Positions 3,257 to 11,005 of a DNA stretch of 30,283 nucleotides are shown here, in pieces (within the stretch, counting starts at the first letter, position 1; each line of letters begins with the position of its first letter). This DNA is from a phage, in assembly GCA_021534775.1 (NCBI GenBank), contig GCA_021534775.1_4809.1, one strand, 5' to 3'. The notes under the pieces are model-generated. The model saw only the letters and a list, made by a program, of their open reading frames with translations, was not told where the DNA came from and made no database searches. The position numbers were made by a program, and so were the translations under genes.

Positions 3257-3842
3257 GCCTGCCGCGCAGGAGTGTACTGCAAATTTCCTGTGGGTACAAA
3301 ATAGTACGGTACTGTCTAGGACTTTTTCTTTGAAAAGTTAGTGGACCAAATGTGTCGTATTTTTGATTAGTGTACCGCAAATTCCATCAAGTAGCAAAAC
3401 GCACCAAAAGACCCATGCCATAAAAACCACACGAACGCAATAATCAATCGACGTTACAGTTTCCAGCGTTACAATTCGAAAGCGAATGATTCGACGCATA
3501 ATAATATGAAGCATAATGATTCGAAAGCGAGTGATTGCGTGTAGGATAATATCGGTGGGGATTATTCTAGATGCATGTAATTTCGCATGCGTACTATTTT
3601 CGGACGAAGGGTCGGCATATTCCTCGTTTTAGTTCGGAACGAAGGGAAAGTTTTGCGCCTTTATAAAACAACGACTTACGCGACCCGCCTTAACGGTCCG
3701 ATATAGGTGTCTATATAAAACAAGGACTTACGCGATGTTCTCCATTTAACGTAATACCTGTTATGCGAACTAAGGCGCATCTCGACGAAGATTATGCGAC
3801 GACGAAGGGAAGGATAAAGGAGTTTTCGCGGAGAAGCGCATC
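3257..3842. repeat. Repeat-rich non-coding region between convergent terminators
   Basis: No ORF of 60 aa or more on either strand. Direct repeats of gacgaaggg at 3603, 3638 and 3801; attcgaaagcga(a/g)tgatt twice (about 3474 and 3520); GTAC-containing motifs gtactgcaaattt (3274) and gtaccgcaaatt (3372). Confidence 0.6.
3662..3735. repeat. Pair of 22-bp direct repeats TATAAAACAA(C/G)GACTTACGCGA
   Basis: Copies at 3662-3683 and 3714-3735 with one mismatch, 52 bp apart. Confidence 0.7.
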
Positions 3843-3872
3843 GAGATAGGGGCGAAGAAAAGCCGCGACTAA
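3843..3872 (-). terminator. Intrinsic terminator for minus-strand gene 3900-4190
   Basis: On the minus strand: GCCGCG cttagt CGCGGC followed by ttttcttcg. Confidence 0.55.
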
Positions 3873-3899
3873 GCGCGGCCTATTAGTAACGGAAGGATA

Positions 3900-4190
3900 T
3901 TATAAGGAGACAATTTTAAAATAAGTTACTTCGCCGCCGAGTTGCGGTACAGCGAGATATTCGCCGCCGATTTCGGTAATCGTATAGACGAAGCCGTTAA
4001 TCGTTACGCGGGATGATACGATGTCCTCGTCGCGATACTTGTAAAGGTCGAGGAAGTTGATCGGCTCATAAATAGGTTCGATAGTTGCGTCTACGTTAGA
4101 GAGATAAACGCTCTCTAAGGTTTCGCCAAATACGTTAGAGTTTTCGGAAGTCTCGACGCGAGCGGAACGGATAGCGGCTAAAGTAATCAT
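3900..4190 (-). CDS. Small acidic protein (96 aa), hypothetical
   Basis: ORF with RBS aggag 7 nt upstream of ATG in the conserved context ccaactaggagattattATG; about 14 Asp/Glu versus 6 Lys/Arg. Confidence 0.65.
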   Translation of the reverse strand: MITLAAIRSARVETSENSNVFGETLESVYLSNVDATIEPIYEPINFLDLYKYRDEDIVSSRVTINGFVYTITEIGGEYLAVPQLGGEVTYFKIVSL

Positions 4191-4214
4191 AATAATCTCC
4201 TAGTTGGTCGGGCG

Positions 4215-4235
4215 GGTAGCGACCTATTCGCTACC
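4215..4235 (-). promoter_or_regulatory. 5'UTR stem-loop with conserved AAUAGGU loop (copy 1)
   Basis: Arms ggtagcg / cgctacc around a 7-nt loop, between the promoter and RBS of gene 3900-4190. Confidence 0.5.
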
Positions 4236-4257
4236 TCATCCCCTCTCGATATAAAAC

Positions 4258-4286
4258 ATTATAGTCTTAGTGTACGAAGAAGTAAA
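4258..4286 (-). promoter_or_regulatory. Sigma70-like promoter for gene 3900-4190
   Basis: Minus strand reads TTTACT, 17-nt spacer, TATAAT. Confidence 0.55.
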
Positions 4287-4297
4287 GCACTTTTTCG

Positions 4298-4600
4298 TTA
4301 TTCTGCAATAAAATATTTATAAGCCTTATCGCCTTCTACGTCGATATACTCGACGATAATTAACGCTTCGCCGCGCGGCGTAACCGTCTCGATAAGGGTA
4401 ACGGCTTCGTCGTCGGTCTTCGCGAAGCGGATGGCGCTACGTTCGGCGTACTTAATATCGTCGAAGGAAAGGCCGATGAAGGCGACCGCGCGGACCTTAA
4501 TGGCGCTAGATTCTAGTTCCGCGTTAACGGCGGCGATAAGAGAGCGAACGGTTAAGCGGTCTTCGTCGTAAGTAAGGATGGAAGAGATTAAAGTAGTCAT
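4298..4600 (-). CDS. Small acidic protein (100 aa), hypothetical; ORF-track start 4657 rejected
   Basis: Internal ATG (MTTLISS) preceded by gggag 7 nt upstream; the promoter -10 overlaps the track ATG at 4657, so the transcript starts downstream of it. Confidence 0.6.
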   Translation of the reverse strand: MTTLISSILTYDEDRLTVRSLIAAVNAELESSAIKVRAVAFIGLSFDDIKYAERSAIRFAKTDDEAVTLIETVTPRGEALIIVEYIDVEGDKAYKYFIAE

Positions 4601-4656
4601 AATAAAGCTCCCGATGCTAGTAGAAGAAAGGGCCATCGCCCGTCTCGATATAAACA

Positions 4657-4684
4657 AGTATACGCGAGTGTACGAAGAAGTAAA
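4657..4684 (-). promoter_or_regulatory. Sigma70-like promoter for gene 4298-4600
   Basis: Minus strand reads TTTACT, 16-nt spacer, TATACT; the upstream part (ctttacttcttcgtacact) is nearly identical to the promoter at 4258-4286. Confidence 0.5.
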
Positions 4685-4728
4685 GAAAAAAGATAAAATA
4701 ATTTATCGCATTTTTATCGAAAAAGTGC

Positions 4729-4756
4729 TTTACTTTTTTCTACACTATATTATAAT
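4729..4756 (+). promoter_or_regulatory. Sigma70-like promoter for gene 4825-5139
   Basis: TTTACT, 16-nt spacer, TATAAT. Confidence 0.55.
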
Positions 4757-4779
4757 GTACTCATATCGGGACGGGATGA

Positions 4780-4800
4780 GTTAACGAATAGGTCGTTAAC
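4780..4800 (+). promoter_or_regulatory. 5'UTR stem-loop with conserved AAUAGGU loop (copy 2)
   Basis: Arms gttaacg / cgttaac around the same 7-nt loop aataggt; the stem sequence differs from copy 1 but stays complementary. Confidence 0.5.
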
Positions 4801-4824
4801 GCCTCTCCCAACTAGGAGTTTATT

Positions 4825-5139
4825 ATGGCTATCGTTACCCGCTTTACCCTCGAAAACGCAACCGCCGAAGTCCAGGGCGTTACGCTTACTTACGGCGAAA
4901 TTCTCGCGAAATTCTCCGGCGTTCGCTTAGGCGAAGAAATTAACGACGCGACGGTAATCGAGCAACTCGCTGCTTCTCGCTTAGAGCGCGACGAAAACGG
5001 ATTCTTCGAAGTCGATGCGGAATTAAATTTATGCGGTAAAACGGCGTTTATTAACGAGTTCGAACTCGCCGTTTTAGTTAATTACGATAGCAAAGCTTAC
5101 GCCTTCGCCCTCGAATTAATCGAAGACGACGAAGAGTAA
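4825..5139 (+). CDS. Small strongly acidic protein (104 aa), hypothetical
   Basis: RBS in the context ccaactaggagtttattATG; about 22 Asp/Glu versus 7 Lys/Arg; C-terminus ELIEDDEE. Confidence 0.7.
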   Translation: MAIVTRFTLENATAEVQGVTLTYGEILAKFSGVRLGEEINDATVIEQLAASRLERDENGFFEVDAELNLCGKTAFINEFELAVLVNYDSKAYAFALELIEDDEE

Positions 5140-5219
5140 GAGAGGATTTTTAGAGCGTCGTGCGCGGCGCTTTAATAAAATTCTTTCGCGCCTAGCGCCC
5201 TAACAAATAGGAGTTTATT

Positions 5220-5846
5220 ATGGTTAGCTTAAATCGCTTTTCTACTAGCGGCGACGTTATCGCAACTAAGACCGCCGACCTCGTTGCATTCTATAATGCA
5301 AATTCCGGCTCAAAACCGATTAAGAAGTTTGCGGACCGCCGGACCGCCGAGACTCGCGTAATCGCGTTAATCGAGTCCTTAAACGCGCTCGATGAGCCGT
5401 CCAACGAATCGCCCATCCCCGACGCGAAGCCGCGCGAGGAAGTGTCCAGCGATGTAAAAACGCATAAGGCGCGTGCGGTCGTTAAAAAGGCCGAGCCGAC
5501 GCAGGAAGAACTCGACGCGATGACCGACGAAGAGTATGAAGCCTTCGTTAAGAGCGGTTTAAACGATAGTGCAAATTGCGTAGTGCAAAATGGAACTCCT
5601 TCCCATCGCCGTTCGAATAGCGAAGGCATTGCAAAAAGTTGGGATAATAAGGAAGTGGCGCAAAAGCGTCTTACCCGTAACGGCGTTATGGTCGAGGGTG
5701 TAGGCGAGTTCAAATCGGTCCGCGTAGCGTTCGCCGCGCTGGGCTTACCGGATAGCAAGCACATTCGCTTCCGCATGAAGCTTAAAGAAGCTGGACGCTT
5801 GAACTTCGAGTTCGGCAACAAGTCCTATACCTTCCAGATTATCTAA
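5220..5846 (+). CDS. Hypothetical protein (208 aa)
   Basis: Same RBS context aataggagtttattATG; contains two tandem ATAGTGCAAA motif copies at 5566-5591. Confidence 0.55.
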   Translation: MVSLNRFSTSGDVIATKTADLVAFYNANSGSKPIKKFADRRTAETRVIALIESLNALDEPSNESPIPDAKPREEVSSDVKTHKARAVVKKAEPTQEELDAMTDEEYEAFVKSGLNDSANCVVQNGTPSHRRSNSEGIAKSWDNKEVAQKRLTRNGVMVEGVGEFKSVRVAFAALGLPDSKHIRFRMKLKEAGRLNFEFGNKSYTFQII

Positions 5847-5852
5847 TCGAAT

Positions 5853-5876
5853 GGCGGCCCTTCGGGGTCGCTTTTC
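5853..5876 (+). terminator. Intrinsic terminator with UUCG tetraloop
   Basis: gcggccc ttcg gggtcgc followed by tttt. Confidence 0.6.
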
Positions 5877-5896
5877 ATAGTGCAAATTGGTGGCTT

Positions 5897-6160
5897 ATGA
5901 ATACGCTCATTCTCATCGCTACGTTGTCCATCGGAAGTGGTCGCACCTTATCCCTTTACGACCATAGTGCAAATTGTGCTTATCCTACGCGAGTTGCGGC
6001 AATAGTTAATAGTGCAAATCGAATGCTATTCGAGACTTGTTGGCGGGTCGATAACGAGAAAGGGCGCATCGTCTTAGGTTATAGTGCGAATCTGCTGGTG
6101 GAGTCGTTCGATTGGACGGTTGAAGGTCGTAAATTGTTACGTAAAGTGACTAAAAGATGA
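5897..6160 (+). CDS. Questionable ORF (87 aa)
   Basis: Short RBS spacing (ggtgg, 3 nt). Three in-frame motif copies translate as HSAN, NSAN and YSAN, so the frame may be a by-product of the DNA motif array. Confidence 0.3.
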   Translation: MNTLILIATLSIGSGRTLSLYDHSANCAYPTRVAAIVNSANRMLFETCWRVDNEKGRIVLGYSANLLVESFDWTVEGRKLLRKVTKR

Positions 6161-6274
6161 CTTATAATAATACACTTTCTAACGCGTTTATGGTTGTAAC
6201 CTTCCCCGTCGTATTACCGATGGCCCTAGAAGTGGAGAAAATGTGTTCCAGGGCCGTTTTATAGTGCAAATTGG

Positions 6275-6763
6275 CTAGTGGCGGGAGAATTGCTCACCTT
6301 CTTTGGCCGCCTCTCCAAAATCCTTGTAGAAATCGTCCATGGAACGGCCCATTTTACTATTGCCGTTTTCATCAATCATCGTGATGCCGTAGATGATATT
6401 CAGTTCACGAATAGCATTAAGCTTGGCTGACGCCGCGACTTCTGGATCACGCACAAGCTTGACCAAATTGTGAATTGCACCTTTTACGCTCCACAAATCC
6501 TTGAGTGGCATCTCTTCCATACGCTTTTTGAAGCGCATCTTGTAGTATGGATTGCGTTGCGTGCAAAGGATTCGCTGGCCAGTGTAGTTATCCGTTGCAA
6601 CTTCCATTCCAAATACTAGTGCAAAAGCTGCGCGCATGTCATGACCCTGAATAACAAGGTCAATGAACTCATCGAATAAAGCCTGATTGTGCTCTGCGAA
6701 TCGCGGGTCTTCAAAGTCTTCAGGCATCGCTACATAATCTTGACTCATAGTGCAAAATCCCAT
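6275..6763 (-). CDS. Hypothetical protein (162 aa; start may be 6748)
   Basis: Minus-strand ORF. Both candidate ATGs are created by the motif (the reverse complement of CAT in cATAGTGCAAAT). Confidence 0.55.
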   Translation of the reverse strand: MGFCTMSQDYVAMPEDFEDPRFAEHNQALFDEFIDLVIQGHDMRAAFALVFGMEVATDNYTGQRILCTQRNPYYKMRFKKRMEEMPLKDLWSVKGAIHNLVKLVRDPEVAASAKLNAIRELNIIYGITMIDENGNSKMGRSMDDFYKDFGEAAKEGEQFSRH

Positions 6764-6783
6764 AGTGCAAATTAATAGTGTGA

Positions 6784-6812
6784 ATTATACAATGGATGAA
6801 CATTATATTCAA
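6784..6812 (-). promoter_or_regulatory. Sigma70-like promoter for gene 6275-6763
   Basis: Minus strand reads TTGAAT, 17-nt spacer, TATAAT; the -10 and 5'UTR overlap the three tandem motif copies. Confidence 0.5.
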
Positions 6813-6976
6813 GTGCAGATTGATGTTCATTATGGCTATAAACGTACACAAATCATAATGCTGCGTGGATTGCGGACCGTGGTGCGTGGTGTACTGTTTG
6901 ATACGTATAAAAGAAATCCATCCCTTTCGCCGCTTGTTATGCAAATCAATGACTTAGCCGCTGCTGGCTGGTTGAA

Positions 6977-7341
6977 GCGTATCATGACGTATCATCCGTA
7001 TTGCCGCAAGTCTTTGTTTTTACTTATATCTTACGGATGATACGTTAAATATATAAATTAACATAAGTATGAGGATATGAAAAAAATTAATATAAATGTT
7101 TTTAAAATGGAGTTAATTAATTTTTCGAATTCTATATATAACGATGCTCAGTTTTATCCGTATCATCCGTAAGATTAATGTACAAGCCAGGCGCGGCAAG
7201 GGCTGTACACTCTTACGGATAGAAAACCATGACGTATCATGACGTAAGGGTGTACCACTTTTGAAAATAGGAATCCAGGAACGGCGCGGCCTGCGGCCAT
7301 GATACGCTTAATTTTTAACCGTATTTTAGGCGTATCAAATG
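6977..7341. repeat. Cluster of direct and inverted repeats flanking an AT-rich core
   Basis: Perfect 15-bp inverted repeat cttacggatgatacg (7030-7044) / cgtatcatccgtaag (7159-7173) around an AT-rich segment of about 110 bp. Further copies at 6987-7000 and 7212-7249; GC-rich islets ccaggcgcggcaagggctg and ccaggaacggcgcggcctgcggcc. Confidence 0.65.
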
Positions 7342-9376: not shown

Positions 9377-9714
9377 TTAACCTTCTCCAATTGGAATCTT
9401 GTTTCTGGAAAGCCTGCAACAAACATGTCACGGCCCTCGACATCACGCTTCACGAACCAGCGCATTCCGCTGACTACCGTGAAGACAATTTGCCTTCCAT
9501 CAATAATAAGTCCTTTTGCCTCATAAAGCAAATAGGTCTGACCGACCTTGAAGCTCGACAGCTCTTTGCTTGTGCTGGTGCACTTGAGCCGCCACTGGGT
9601 GAGATTGGATTCGCTCGCCTCGATGTCAACAACCTTACCGCGCAGCGGCGATGTGCGCTGAAGCTCTTGCATTTGCTCGTCGAACGTTAGCTCACGGCCT
9701 TCTTGCTCTTCCAT
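9373..9714 (-). CDS. Hypothetical protein (113 aa)
   Basis: ORF; overlap with neighbours. Confidence 0.6.
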   Translation of the reverse strand: MEEQEGRELTFDEQMQELQRTSPLRGKVVDIEASESNLTQWRLKCTSTSKELSSFKVGQTYLLYEAKGLIIDGRQIVFTVVSGMRWFVKRDVEGRDMFVAGFPETRFQLEKVK

Positions 9715-10223
9715 TATTCCTCCACGACTTTGTATTTGATGACATCGCCGTCGCGGTGGCGCTCAATCTTCTCCCAGCGCAATTCATTTGATGCAATCGG
9801 CTTTGTTGCTGTAGCGCCGTCGCGCAACATGTAAAGCACCTTCTTACCTGGGACTGGATTCAAGTCTCCACCATCCCAATCAATCCAACCGTCACTCGCC
9901 ATTGGCTTATCCTTCAAATGATCATACTTCTCACCGATGTGGGCGATTGGATGTTTGCTTTTGTAAAAGAATGCCAACGCGACGTCGTAGCACGGGTGAC
10001 TATGGGAAAGACAAACATCATCACACCAAAGCTCCATGGTGCGCGACTTAAGCGTCATCATATTAGTATACCACTCGATGGTGTAGTGGTCGTTAAGGTT
10101 GCCGACGATATAGAAGTTGCGACAAAACACCATATCGTTTTCCGACTTCTCGCGGCTATAACTTCTGATTGCGCCAGCCTTCACAGCCATTTCCAATACT
10201 GCTTCGAGTTGTTCGATTTTCAT
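9714..10223 (-). CDS. Hypothetical protein with a C-terminal GG-x-NPVPGK domain (paralogue of 8140-8559)
   Basis: C-terminus WDGGDLNPVPGKKVLYMLRDG...SNELRWEKI...IKYKVVEE aligns with WFGGENPVPGKMVEFELLNG...SDSLTWDKV...IVAYRVVKE. Confidence 0.6.
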   Translation of the reverse strand: MKIEQLEAVLEMAVKAGAIRSYSREKSENDMVFCRNFYIVGNLNDHYTIEWYTNMMTLKSRTMELWCDDVCLSHSHPCYDVALAFFYKSKHPIAHIGEKYDHLKDKPMASDGWIDWDGGDLNPVPGKKVLYMLRDGATATKPIASNELRWEKIERHRDGDVIKYKVVEE

Positions 10224-10239
10224 TGTTGCTTTCCCCTAT

Positions 10240-10404
10240 TTATTTGATGGATGTTGTGTAAGAATATACTTTCTTGCGTCGCTTTGCCTTGTACAAACAA
10301 CGGTCGCCGCTGCGATTGTAAATGTTAAGCCAGGTGCGTTTACTAATCTTATACGGTACATGCGGCTTAATGAATAACAAACGGGCCTTAAGATTTGATG
10401 TCAT
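10240..10404 (-). CDS. Small basic protein (54 aa, MTSNLKARLLF...KRRKKVYSYTTSIK)
   Basis: Hand-translated ORF below the track threshold; its ATG overlaps the stop of 10401-10706 (ATGA). Confidence 0.4.
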   Translation of the reverse strand: MTSNLKARLLFIKPHVPYKISKRTWLNIYNRSGDRCLYKAKRRKKVYSYTTSIK

Positions 10405-10706
10405 AACTTACCTCCAAACGTTGCAACACGGATTCCGCAACGTTCAAATGTTAACATAGGGTTAAGGCCGTCGGCGCAAGTAATGAATAAATCATCAACA
10501 ACAAGCTCATACCCTCCGACGTAAAGTATAAACTTATCATCGGTGTTATTTAATAAAAGGATTGCGGCGATGCCGCCTTGATTATTACTAAATCCTATTG
10601 CATTCTCTCCGCTGACTTGCGCCTCGTTAAACTCTTTAATTGCACCACAGTTAACGGCTTCTTGCAAAACGTTCAAAATCTTTTTCTTCATCGCTTCGGT
10701 ACTCAT
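10401..10706 (-). CDS. Hypothetical protein (101 aa)
   Basis: ORF in operon context. Confidence 0.6.
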   Translation of the reverse strand: MSTEAMKKKILNVLQEAVNCGAIKEFNEAQVSGENAIGFSNNQGGIAAILLLNNTDDKFILYVGGYELVVDDLFITCADGLNPMLTFERCGIRVATFGGKL

Positions 10707-10708
10707 AA

Positions 10709-11005
10709 TTAAATCCCCTTAAACATAAAGCCGCTGATGATGGATTGATAATAGGTGATGCCGCGTATCTCTACAACCTTGCACCGATGGGCTTGGCCCT
10801 TGTATTCTATCCACCATACCTCCATGTCAGGCAAATTGTGGCGACAAGTCAACCAGCCATGAAACAGCTCGTATGCCTCACCGATTTTGAACGGCTTAAG
10901 CACGCCGTAAGAGTCATTCCTCAATACGCAGACAACATCTTGGCTGTCTTTGTATACAGCATCATGAAACAATCCGCTTCTGCCAAACCTTTCGTCGCAA
11001 CTCAT
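10709..11005 (-). CDS. Hypothetical protein (98 aa; ORF-track N-terminal extension rejected)
   Basis: Strong RBS aaggagaggtga before the internal ATG (MSCDERF); the upstream 23 codons of the track ORF lie in a terminator/promoter element. Confidence 0.6.
   Translation of the reverse strand: MSCDERFGRSGLFHDAVYKDSQDVVCVLRNDSYGVLKPFKIGEAYELFHGWLTCRHNLPDMEVWWIEYKGQAHRCKVVEIRGITYYQSIISGFMFKGI

What the first reader, a model, noticed from the sequence alone, without database searches (positions are those of the whole stretch)
5566..6812. Dense same-orientation array of ATAGTGCAAAT, with three tandem copies over a promoter
At least 11 copies of an 11-mer occur within 1.2 kb, all on the same strand. 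A given 10-mer is expected far less than once in 30 kb by chance. Three tandem copies at 13-15 bp spacing overlap the -10 and 5'UTR of the minus-strand promoter for gene 6275-6763, which is an operator-like arrangement. Other copies sit beside terminators (5877, 6261) or inside ORFs. The array spans the point where plus- and minus-strand transcription converge. Candidate roles are regulator binding sites, a packaging site, or origin iterons. The motif contains CAT and TAG, so it creates start codons on the minus strand and fixes the reading frame on the plus strand.
Basis: seen in the sequence. Interest (0 to 1): 0.65.

Follow-up and report, generated by a model that had tools for sequence, protein, structure and literature searches.

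The report
Repeat array beside phage terminase gene
A dozen same-direction copies of an 11-base motif lie inside the long terminal repeat of an E. coli phage, over and beside its small-terminase gene and 0.3-1.8 kb from the physical genome end; they are most likely docking sites for the DNA-packaging enzyme, whose DNA target in this phage family is unknown.

Summary
Eleven copies (0-2 mismatches) of ATAGTGCAAAT lie at 5566-6785, all on the + strand. In the 98.6%-identical phage vB_EcoM_WFC, every copy with 0-1 mismatch in the 72 kb genome lies in the direct terminal repeat (DTR).

The window is a Wifcevirus. The DTR boundary B1 maps to window 7108|7109, so the array lies 324-1806 bp from a physical genome end.

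Gene 6275-6763(-) is the small terminase TerS (E=1.5e-45 to the phage E217 TerS decamer, PDB 7UXE).

The same asymmetric motif, RATTTGCACTAY, is the top repeated word in five more distant relatives (TerS 43-69% identical, including Pantoea phage Kyle). It is always on the TerS-sense strand and always runs from terS to the 3' end of the convergent gene. Copies sit at different codons in different lineages, so selection acts on the DNA.

Best reading, inferred and not shown: a multi-copy terminase recognition (pac/cosB-like) array, which in Wifcevirus also overlaps the terS promoter. Binding by another protein, or a polar signal read from the genome end, is not excluded.

I found no published description. 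In several relatives the motif is interleaved with co-oriented clusters of Chi sites.

The parts
6775..6785 (+). Motif copy (ATAGTGTGAAT, 2 mismatches). First of the tandem triplet; overlaps the end of the -10 hexamer and the transcription start of the terS promoter.
   Evidence: conserved in 7/7 Wifcevirus genomes
6762..6772 (+). Motif copy (exact). Second of the triplet, in the terS 5'UTR; supplies the upstream in-frame ATG at 6763.
6747..6757 (+). Motif copy (1 mismatch). Third of the triplet; contains the terS start codon annotated in relatives (6746-6748).
6616..6626 (+). Motif copy (CTAGTGCAAAA) inside terS, encoding the FAL of the peptide AFALVFG.
6261..6271 (+). Motif copy (exact) just past the terS stop codon, next to the terminator between the convergent genes. 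Followed by the near-Chi sequence GCTAGTGG.
6081..6091 (+). Motif copy (1 mismatch) inside the 87-aa ORF. An exact Chi site follows 2 bp later.
6009..6019 (+). Motif copy (exact) inside the 87-aa ORF (encodes N-S-A-N).
5964..5974 (+). Motif copy (exact) inside the 87-aa ORF (encodes S-A-N-C).
5877..5887 (+). Motif copy (exact) between the terminator of the 208-aa gene and the ribosome-binding site of the 87-aa ORF.
5566..5590 (+). Tandem pair of motif copies (5566 exact; 5580 with 2 mismatches; 14 bp apart) in the linker region of the 208-aa gene. Absent from 2 of 7 Wifcevirus genomes.
5293..5303 (+). Weak outlying copy (ATAATGCAAAT), not conserved within the genus.
6275..6763 (-). Small terminase subunit gene (terS), E217 type. 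The start annotated in relatives is at 6748.
   Evidence: A profile of 7 homologs hits PDB 7UXE (phage E217 small terminase decamer), E=1.5e-45, over residues 4-152. Annotated as terminase small subunit in phage Mansfield. AF2 model is all-helical plus a C-terminal beta hairpin.
6784..6812 (-). Sigma-70-like promoter of terS (TTGAAT-17-TATAAT).
   Evidence: 10 of 12 matches; sequence
7108..7109 (.). B1, the terS-proximal boundary of the direct terminal repeat and a physical end of virion DNA. Base 7108 is the first base of the repeat.
   Evidence: Position 1 of WFC, Mansfield (PhageTerm) and WFH all map here. The Kyle record starts at the homologous place.
3407..7108 (.). Direct terminal repeat as delimited by the Mansfield PhageTerm boundary. 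The WFC record's repeat would extend to about 3325.
5220..5846 (+). 208-aa gene (vB_Eco4M-7 gp19) convergent with terS. Its 3' end marks the far edge of the conserved part of the array. A possible DNA-binding protein.
   Evidence: detected by mass spectrometry of phage preparations (PMC7048862)
6094..6101 (+). Exact Chi site (GCTGGTGG), in the orientation active for RecBCD entering at B1.

Best explanation
The array is a multi-copy, one-orientation set of binding sites for the phage's DNA-packaging machinery. The most likely binder is the decameric small terminase (TerS), encoded under and beside the array. On this reading it is the pac/cosB-type recognition region that marks the terS-proximal end of the terminal repeat. 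TerS rings bound to RATTTGCACTAY copies over about 1-1.5 kb would tell the large terminase where it is and which way it faces, so that the cut is made at B1, 324 bp from the first copy. This could act at initiation (as in lambda, where the end next to the TerS sites is packaged first) or at termination (as in T7, where the motor crosses the array just before the terminal cut). In Wifcevirus and L005 the first three to five copies cover the terS promoter, 5'UTR and start codon, so the same binding would also throttle terS expression.

Shown: the location in the terminal repeat, the identity of TerS, and the conservation, polarity and turnover of the motif. Inferred: that TerS is the binder, and that binding directs cutting.
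For: 1) All copies lie inside the 3.7 kb terminal repeat, 324-1806 bp from B1, and nowhere else in a 72 kb genome.
2) The gene under the array is a true TerS: E=1.5e-45 to E217 TerS, PDB 7UXE. terL lies about 9 kb away with no adjacent terS. From general knowledge, pac sites commonly lie in or next to terS (P22, SPP1, P1, T4).
3) The same motif is the top-ranked repeated 9-mer (tied with a Chi-like word in Kyle) near terS in L005, L006, L007, Kyle and L261, whose TerS is 69, 51, 47, 43 and 51% identical. There are 59 copies on the TerS-sense strand and none on the other strand, always from about -110 to +1000/1500 of the terS start.
4) Copies inside terS sit at different codons in different lineages. 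The array is therefore maintained by selection on DNA, not inherited as protein-coding sequence.
5) The nine core copies vary less than their surroundings within the genus: 3.1% against 9.9% of columns, p=0.025.
6) The review PMC9611059 reports that E217 TerS overexpression lowers infectivity, which fits a need for autoregulation. It also reports that no DNA binding was seen in vitro, so the cognate site of this TerS family is still unknown.
Against: No binding data exist. E217 TerS showed no appreciable DNA binding in vitro.

The motif is unchanged across TerS proteins only 43% identical, and the helix I would guess to be the recognition helix (residues about 43-51) is not conserved among motif-bearing lineages. 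It is absent from relatives with 30-41% identical TerS: MyoSmar, Pbunavirus, PCSE1 and tabernarius.

A second repeat family is lineage-specific and flanks the B1 cut directly: TGATACG/TACGGAT in Wifcevirus and GGTTATT in Kyle. It is an equally natural candidate for the terminase site.

The copies are irregularly spaced over more than 1 kb, which is unlike the compact pac and cosB sites known.

Chi sites in this region are oriented for RecBCD entering at B1. By analogy with lambda (PMC12315714), that marks the end that terminase does not occlude.
Confidence: 0.4

Rival explanations
1. The copies are binding sites for a different sequence-specific DNA-binding protein, phage-encoded or host, that regulates or coats the genes of the terminal repeat. 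It could be a repressor or roadblock that shuts off the convergent terS and gp19 units. One candidate is the 208-aa gp19 encoded inside the array.
Against: Kyle keeps 14 copies but none at its terS promoter, so promoter control is not the conserved role. The sites are asymmetric and all in one orientation regardless of gene direction, which is unusual for operators. The conserved modules of gp19 are nearly unchanged in Pbunavirus and present in MyoSmar, and both lack the motif. All fold matches for gp19 are below significance. No known E. coli factor consensus fits; a DnaA box matches only 7 of 9 positions, with a mismatch at position 9.
Confidence: 0.2
2. The motif is a polar signal read by a machine that travels along the DNA from, or towards, the B1 end, rather than a static docking site. 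One version is a cosQ-like slow-down-and-cut signal for the translocating terminase. Another is an element that works with Chi in processing the entering genome end by RecBCD and RecA.
For: The orientation is strictly single, 59 copies to 0, irrespective of gene direction. The array has the same extent and the same strand as clusters of Chi sites in the terminal repeats of relatives: Kyle 9, L006 7, MyoSmar 4, L007 2 and WFC 1, with 0 exact sites in the opposite orientation in these repeats. The L261 contig has 7 against 1. In the window an exact Chi follows copy 6081 and near-Chi sequences follow copies 5877 and 6261. Terminally clustered, oriented Chi sites are a documented phage strategy (PMC12315714).
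Against: No known translocase reads this sequence. E. coli Chi is GCTGGTGG and the motif does not resemble it. L005 has 11 motif copies and no Chi, while MyoSmar has Chi and no motif, so the two are separable. The tandem copies at 12-15 bp spacing look more like cooperative protein binding.
Confidence: 0.15
3. The copies are iterons of a replication origin located in the terminal repeat.
For: They are direct repeats of one short motif. An AT-rich stretch lies about 250 bp away at B1. The cumulative GC skew turns at about 7000.
Against: Spacings are irregular, from 13 to 355 bp, with no helical phasing. Most copies lie inside coding sequence. No initiator gene is adjacent; the nearest annotated primase is about 10 kb upstream. 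The GC-skew turn coincides with the genome end and with the switch in gene orientation, which explains it without an origin. The motif is not a DnaA box.
Confidence: 0.05
4. The array has no function of its own. It is a by-product of local duplications or of recurring S-A-N / F-A-L codons.
For: Several copies are in frame as Ser-Ala-Asn in the two + strand ORFs. Some copies are homologous between Wifcevirus and L005.
Against: Copies also occur in intergenic DNA and, in L006, in an interval where no gene was called. They sit at non-homologous positions in different lineages. About 15 sense-strand GCACTA lie in about 2.4 kb of terS genes against about 0.6 expected, with 0 antisense. The five bases upstream of GCACTA are conserved as well.
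Confidence: 0.03

Closest known systems
Lambda cosB (the R3/R2/R1 sites bound by gpNu1) next to cosN
   Same: Repeated short TerS-binding elements lie just inside the genome end. The terS gene is the first gene and reads inward from that end. The sites position the large subunit for a cut a fixed distance away.
   Different: cosB is compact (about 120 bp, three sites plus an IHF site) and lies before Nu1. Here 10-14 copies spread over 1-1.5 kb, run through terS and beyond, and all share one orientation. The ends are a 3.7 kb direct repeat, not cohesive ends. Binding is unproven.
pac sites of SPP1 (pacL/pacR boxes) and P1 (hexamer repeats flanking the cut), and the pac sites inside terS of P22 and Sf6
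   Same: Multiple copies of a short box recognised by an oligomeric TerS. They are located in or next to the terS gene and, in SPP1, overlap its promoter region.
   Different: Those phages package by the headful mechanism and have permuted genomes. Their boxes flank the cut within about 100-250 bp. Here the repeats that flank the cut directly belong to another family (TGATACG/TACGGAT). (Comparison made from general knowledge, not tested here.)
Small terminase of Pseudomonas phage E217 (Pbunavirus), PDB 7UXE
   Same: The protein encoded at 6275-6763(-) is a clear homolog (E=1.5e-45). In both phages terS lies far from terL.
   Different: No DNA site is known for E217 TerS, and it did not bind DNA in vitro. 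Pbunavirus JG024 lacks the GCACTA array, and its terS-gp19 interval is only about 170 bp.
Terminally clustered, oriented Chi sites of phages P1 and LLS (Smith laboratory; PMC12315714)
   Same: A short asymmetric motif is repeated many times near a genome end, all in one orientation relative to that end. True Chi clusters co-occur with the array in Kyle, L006, L007 and L261.
   Different: The motif is not Chi and has no known reader. It is confined to about 1.5 kb.
Plasmid and phage origin iterons
   Same: Direct repeats of one short motif, some in tandem.
   Different: Spacing is irregular, most copies are in coding sequence, and there is no adjacent initiator gene.

Membership tests
Terminase (TerS) recognition site, pac/cosB type | Lies at or near the packaging cut / physical genome end | tested here: met
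   The first copy is 324 bp and the last 1806 bp from B1. B1 is position 1 of the WFC and WFH records and of the PhageTerm-annotated Mansfield record. The termini come from database records, not from reads analysed here.
Terminase (TerS) recognition site, pac/cosB type | Lies in or next to the terS gene | tested here: met
   The array starts on the terS promoter and start codon and runs through and past terS. TerS identity rests on E=1.5e-45 to PDB 7UXE.
Terminase (TerS) recognition site, pac/cosB type | Several copies of a short recognition box | tested here: met
   11-12 copies in the window and 7-14 in each of five relatives. Consensus RATTTGCACTAY.
Terminase (TerS) recognition site, pac/cosB type | The site changes together with TerS among relatives | tested here: inconclusive
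   The motif is present where TerS is 43-100% identical and absent where it is 30-41% identical. It barely changes within the first group, even though the putative recognition helix does.
Terminase (TerS) recognition site, pac/cosB type | Specifically bound by TerS and required for packaging | not testable with these tools
   Needs EMSA or footprinting and mutant genomes. E217 TerS did not bind the DNA tested in vitro (PMC9611059).
Operator of a transcriptional regulator | Overlaps the regulated promoter in all members | tested here: not met
   Met in the window and in L005. Kyle has no copy upstream of +120 of terS.
Operator of a transcriptional regulator | Dyad symmetry or paired half-sites | tested here: not met
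   The 11-12 bp motif is asymmetric. All 59 copies are in one orientation.
Replication-origin iterons | Regularly spaced repeats in non-coding DNA beside an AT-rich region and an initiator gene | tested here: not met
   Spacings run from 13 to 355 bp. Seven of the 12 copies lie wholly or partly in ORFs. The AT-rich stretch is about 250 bp away. No initiator gene is adjacent.
DnaA boxes | Match to TTATNCACA | tested here: not met
   The best register, ATTTGCACT, gives 7 of 9 matches, with T instead of the conserved A at position 9 (sequence inspection; the consensus is from general knowledge).
Polar translocase signals (Chi, KOPS type) | Single orientation relative to a DNA end or axis | tested here: met
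   59 copies to 0 in six lineages, on the same strand as the Chi clusters.
Polar translocase signals (Chi, KOPS type) | A known motor that recognises the sequence | not testable with these tools
   No resemblance to GCTGGTGG or GGGNAGGG. No literature hit for the motif.
E217-type small terminase (the protein of 6275-6763) | Sequence homology over the whole fold to a solved small terminase shown to be functional by genetics | tested here: met
   hmmsearch of the 7-sequence profile against the PDB hits 7UXE with E=1.5e-45 over residues 4-152. tblastn finds 359 phage records.

The most novel reading that the evidence does not exclude
The array is not a docking site but a new kind of polar end-processing signal. 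It would be a multi-copy 11-mer, co-oriented and interleaved with Chi, read from the terS-proximal genome end either by the terminase motor as it approaches its terminal cut or by a factor that modulates RecBCD/RecA. It would define which end of a long-terminal-repeat genome is cut, protected and recombined.
Probability: 0.12. Interest if true: 0.8.

Novelty: new variant of a known kind. Interest (0 to 1): 0.6.

Why it matters
The E217/Pbunavirus-Wifcevirus type of small terminase has a solved decamer structure but no known DNA target; it did not bind DNA in vitro. How phages with long exact terminal repeats choose their cut sites is also poorly understood.

This array gives a concrete and cheap test: a conserved 11-12 bp word, present 7-14 times next to terS in six lineages and placed 0.3-1.8 kb from a mapped end. 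An in vitro assembly and rebooting system already exists for vB_Eco4M-7, the phage this window most resembles (PMC11074155). Synonymous or neutral knock-outs of the copies are therefore feasible.

Pbunavirus relatives are widely used in therapy, and Wifcevirus phages are reported to replicate unusually fast. Knowing their packaging signals matters for engineering them and for judging transduction risk.

The co-oriented Chi clusters add members to the recently described class of phages that appear to rely on host RecBCD-Chi.

Tried and rejected
1) Pfam on the seven ORFs of the region gave nothing usable. PHROGs gave only families of unknown function.
2) A literature search for the motif returned only unrelated primers. 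The Wifcevirus and vB_Eco4M-7 papers do not mention it. The E217 terminase paper (PMC10026623) is not held.
3) I scanned viral contigs and genome contigs for three tandem TGCACTA. This returned only unrelated micro- and minisatellites, with no TerS homolog among 210 loci. The pattern was badly chosen, because the window's own triplet has one degenerate copy.
4) TerS-based scans found few new relatives: only close ones in viral contigs, and five near-identical ones plus one distant one (L261) in metagenome contigs.
5) Sigma-70, extended -10 and sigma-54 readings of the motif do not fit (hexamer and spacing mismatches; sequence inspection). A promoter reading is also unlikely because, past terS, rightward transcripts would run antisense to the 87-aa ORF and the 208-aa gene.
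6) A DnaA-box reading was rejected (7 of 9 matches, wrong base at position 9).
7) I considered linking the array to the right repeat boundary B2 through the element AATTTGCGGTACACTAATCA. The ATTTGCA resemblance holds only in Wifcevirus. Kyle and L261 have ATTTCACA and ATATTCACG, and the conserved core is GTACACT(A/G)ATCA. I do not use it as evidence.
8) gp19 as the specific binder: profile searches against the PDB and Pfam, and two fold searches, gave only sub-threshold DNA-binding-like matches.
9) I looked for analogous arrays in relatives that lack the motif. MyoSmar has three copies of a 20-bp unit with a palindromic core, and PCSE1 has AATATCGCC six times upstream of terS. Neither shares the architecture.
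Full report
WHAT IS THERE

A search for ATAGTGCAAAT with up to one mismatch finds 9 matches in the 30,283-bp window. All are on the + strand and all lie between 5293 and 6772. Dinucleotide shuffles give 1.0 +/- 0.97, and none of 100 reached 9. The exact 9-mer TAGTGCAAA occurs 9 times, + strand only, at 5567-6771. Allowing two mismatches adds 5580, 6616 and 6775. That makes 11 copies in 5566-6785 plus a weak one at 5293.

The three copies at 6747, 6762 and 6775 are 15 and 13 bp apart. They begin at the last bases of the -10 hexamer of a good sigma-70-like promoter (TTGAAT-17-TATAAT, 6784-6812, minus strand). They run through the 5'UTR into the start codon of ORF 6275-6763(-).

WHERE THE WINDOW COMES FROM

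The region is 95-98.6% identical to Escherichia phages of the genus Wifcevirus: vB_EcoM_WFC, Mansfield, vB_Eco4M-7 and the BASEL phages Bas98-101. These are roughly 68-kb myoviruses.

In WFC the first 3784 bp are repeated exactly at the right end of the record. In Mansfield a 3673-bp direct terminal repeat (DTR) is annotated from PhageTerm. The original paper reports a terminal repeat of about 3.7 kb (PMC6563267).

Position 1 of WFC, WFH and Mansfield all map to window 7108. I call this boundary B1. The other boundary, B2, maps to window 3407 (Mansfield) or 3325 (WFC).

In record coordinates the motif copies lie at 324-1806, entirely inside the DTR. In the whole 72,472-bp WFC record there is no other copy with 0-1 mismatch.

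THE GENE UNDER THE ARRAY

Pfam finds nothing in ORF 6275-6763(-). A profile of seven homologs matches the small terminase of Pseudomonas phage E217 (PDB 7UXE, a decamer) with E=1.5e-45 over residues 4-152. The Mansfield annotators reached the same assignment.

A review of small terminases (PMC9611059) makes three relevant points:
- E217 terS lies about 58 kb from terL.
- Overexpressing TerS lowers infectivity.
- E217 TerS showed no appreciable DNA binding in vitro.

In WFC, terL is at 9377-10804 with no terS beside it. So this is the phage's TerS. It is the first gene inward from the B1 end, and its DNA target is unknown.

RELATIVES

Homologs of this TerS occur on three public contigs: L005 (69% identical), L006 (51%) and L007 (47%). 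Further homologs are in Pantoea phage Kyle (43%) and on metagenome contig L261 (51%).

In each, an unbiased search for repeated 9-mers around terS returns the same word first (tied in Kyle with a Chi-like word). The count of GCACTA on the TerS-sense strand between -150 and +1600 of the terS start is:
- window: 10
- L005: 10
- L006: 9
- L007: 7
- Kyle: 14
- L261: 9

There are none on the other strand. The five bases upstream of GCACTA are also conserved, giving RATTTGCACTAY.

The array always runs from about the terS start to the 3' end of the convergent gp19-like gene. Some copies are positionally homologous between the window and L005. Copies inside terS, however, sit at different codons in different lineages:
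- window: +141
- L006: +36, +294, +455
- L007: +51, +441, +470
- Kyle: +120, +225, +446, +466, +476

This shows turnover under selection on the DNA. In L006 the motif-rich interval contains no called gene at all.

Within the genus, the nine copies from 5877 to 6785 vary less than their surroundings: 3 of 98 columns against 84 of 852, p=0.025. The pair at 5566/5580 is missing in two of seven genomes.

The motif is absent around terS in Serratia phage MyoSmar, Pbunavirus JG024, Salmonella phage PCSE1 and Pseudomonas phage tabernarius, whose TerS is 30-41% identical.

WHAT IT MOST LIKELY DOES

The firm facts are these:
- an asymmetric 11-12 bp word,
- 7-14 copies,
- strictly one orientation,
- confined to about 1-1.5 kb that begins about 0.3 kb from a physical genome end,
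- centred on terS,
- maintained for as long as TerS has diverged to 43% identity.

The simplest mechanism consistent with all of them is a recognition array for the packaging enzyme. This is inference, resting on the established tendency of pac and cosB sites to lie in or beside terS. TerS rings would bind the copies and position and orient the large subunit for the cut at B1.

The layout resembles lambda: end, then TerS sites, then terS reading inward. The data do not say whether the array acts at initiation or at termination, when a motor coming from the right would cross it just before B1.

In Wifcevirus and L005 the first copies cover the terS promoter and start codon. The same binding would then limit TerS synthesis, in line with the reported harm of excess TerS. 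Kyle has no copy at its promoter, so this is a lineage-specific extra and not the core function.

I put this explanation at about 0.4.

WHY NOT HIGHER

First, nothing shows binding, and the only biochemical datum for this TerS family is negative.

Second, B1 itself sits in an AT-rich stretch flanked on both sides by a different repeat family. TGATACG has 8 of its 11 window copies at 6899-7331, and TACGGAT has 5 of 5 at 6994-7214. L005, L006 and L007 have related repeats at similar offsets, whereas Kyle has GGTTATT there instead. A family that flanks the cut and changes between lineages is what one would expect of a terminase site. The GCACTA array may therefore belong to another protein.

Third, the motif hardly changes while the TerS helix I would guess to be the recognition helix does.

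RIVALS

(a) Another DNA-binding protein, acting as a regulator or roadblock for the convergent genes of the DTR (about 0.2). The 208-aa gp19 encoded in the array is a candidate.
- Its AF2 model is confident (pLDDT 84.5).
- It has two small modules joined by a disordered linker.
- Its only structural neighbours are sub-threshold DNA-binding folds.
- It was seen by mass spectrometry in phage preparations (PMC7048862).
- Against it: its modules are almost unchanged in Pbunavirus, and it is present in MyoSmar away from terS. Both phages lack the motif.

(b) A polar signal read from the end (about 0.15). See the Chi observation below.

(c) Origin iterons (about 0.05). Spacing, coding location and the lack of an initiator gene all argue against.

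(d) No function (about 0.03). Turnover and flank conservation argue against.

THE CHI OBSERVATION

While looking at L006 I noticed CCACCAGC, the complement of E. coli Chi, seven times on the TerS-sense strand.

The count of exact Chi sites in that orientation within the terminal repeats is: Kyle 9 (all in the first 2 kb), L006 7, MyoSmar 4 (within 340 bp), L007 2, WFC 1 and L005 0. There are no exact sites in the opposite orientation. L261 has 7 against 1. In the window the single exact site is at 6094-6101, two bases after motif copy 6081.

The strand carrying GCTGGTGG ends 3' at B1. This is the orientation active for RecBCD entering at B1, by the rule restated in PMC12315714.

That paper and its predecessor describe terminally clustered, oriented Chi sites in phage P1 and in lambdoid phages that lack recombination genes. 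The Chi clusters here are thus new members of a known kind.

Chi and the motif share region and strand, which keeps the polar-signal rival alive. They are separable, however: L005 has the motif without Chi, and MyoSmar has Chi without the motif.

COMPARISON WITH KNOWN SYSTEMS AND NOVELTY

The array works most like cosB or pac boxes. It differs in copy number, in its spread over more than 1 kb, in its strict polarity, and in sitting inside a long exact terminal repeat.

I do not file it as a proven pac site, because binding and requirement are untested and covariation with TerS is inconclusive. It fails the tests for a classical operator, for iterons and for DnaA boxes.

I found no description of the motif in the literature held here. 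I rate it a new variant of a known kind, with interest 0.6. It turns an open question, what this structurally solved but DNA-silent TerS family recognises, into a simple gel-shift and genome-rebooting experiment.

Noticed in passing
window 6094-6101 (+); L006 323-4348; Kyle record 255-1972; L008 (MyoSmar) 4653-4993; L261: Chi sites (GCTGGTGG) cluster in the terminal repeats of relatives: Kyle 9, L006 7, MyoSmar 4, L007 2, WFC/window 1, L005 0 (L261: 7 against 1). All lie on the strand that ends 3' at the terS-proximal genome end, which is the orientation active for RecBCD entering there. There are no exact sites in the opposite orientation. This resembles the terminal Chi clusters reported for P1 and phage LLS (PMC12315714).
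   Followed up: partly
window 6899-7331 (both strands), around the terminal-repeat boundary at 7108|7109: A second repeat family flanks the physical end on both sides, within and next to an AT-rich stretch. TGATACG has 8 of its 11 window copies here, and TACGGAT/ATCCGTA has 5 of 5. L005, L006 and L007 have related repeats at similar offsets; Kyle has GGTTATT instead. It may be the true terminase cut-site signal or an origin.
   Followed up: partly
window 3364-3383 (-) and 3272-3285 (-); Mansfield 3696-3715; Kyle about 3628-3648; L261 +3049: A conserved element, AATTTGCGGTACACTAATCA (core GTACACT(A/G)ATCA), lies about 25 nt outside the right boundary of the terminal repeat in both Mansfield (PhageTerm) and Kyle. 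The repeat in the WFC record ends 81 bp further on (3784, where the Mansfield boundary would fall at about 3703), so one of the two published boundaries is probably imprecise.
   Followed up: partly
window 5220-5846 (+): The 208-aa protein (vB_Eco4M-7 gp19) belongs to a large uncharacterised family: 832 clusters at 50% identity. It has two confidently modelled small modules joined by a disordered charged linker. Only weak similarity to SAP/Rho-N, NUMOD and winged-helix DNA-binding folds was found. It was detected by mass spectrometry in phage preparations. Its gene is convergent with terS in most relatives.
   Followed up: partly
window 5897-6160 (+): The 87-aa ORF between terS and gp19 has a signal-peptide-like N-terminus and conserved Cys and Trp residues. 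Homologs exist in L005 and L007. Its three motif copies all read x-Ser-Ala-Asn in frame. In L006 no gene is called in the equivalent motif-rich interval, so the ORF may be overprinted on a cis-acting region.
   Followed up: partly
window 6746-6763 (-): The tandem motif copies create two in-frame ATG codons for terS, at 6763 and 6748. Database records annotate the downstream one (157 aa), which has a GGGA Shine-Dalgarno-like sequence in front of it.
   Followed up: no
window about 4655-4700 and about 4255-4300 (-): Two near-identical promoter-like units, CTTTACTTCTTCGTACACT...TATAAT, precede the two minus-strand ORFs 4298-4657 and 3900-4190 inside the terminal repeat. L007 has a similar unit.
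   Followed up: no
L008 (Serratia phage MyoSmar) 4525-4645: Three copies of a 20-bp unit, AAAAAATAAGCATGCTTTGTA, with a perfect 10-bp palindrome (AAGCATGCTT), lie just downstream of terS. This is a different, operator-like repeat in a relative that lacks the GCACTA motif.
   Followed up: no
public assemblies: Many public contigs carrying terS or gp19 are only 3.2-4.4 kb long, about the size of the terminal repeat. This is what one expects if the double-coverage repeat assembles separately from the rest of the genome.
   Followed up: no
window about 7000: Cumulative GC skew peaks at about 6500-7000 and the skew changes sign there. This coincides with the genome end and with the switch in gene orientation.
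   Followed up: no
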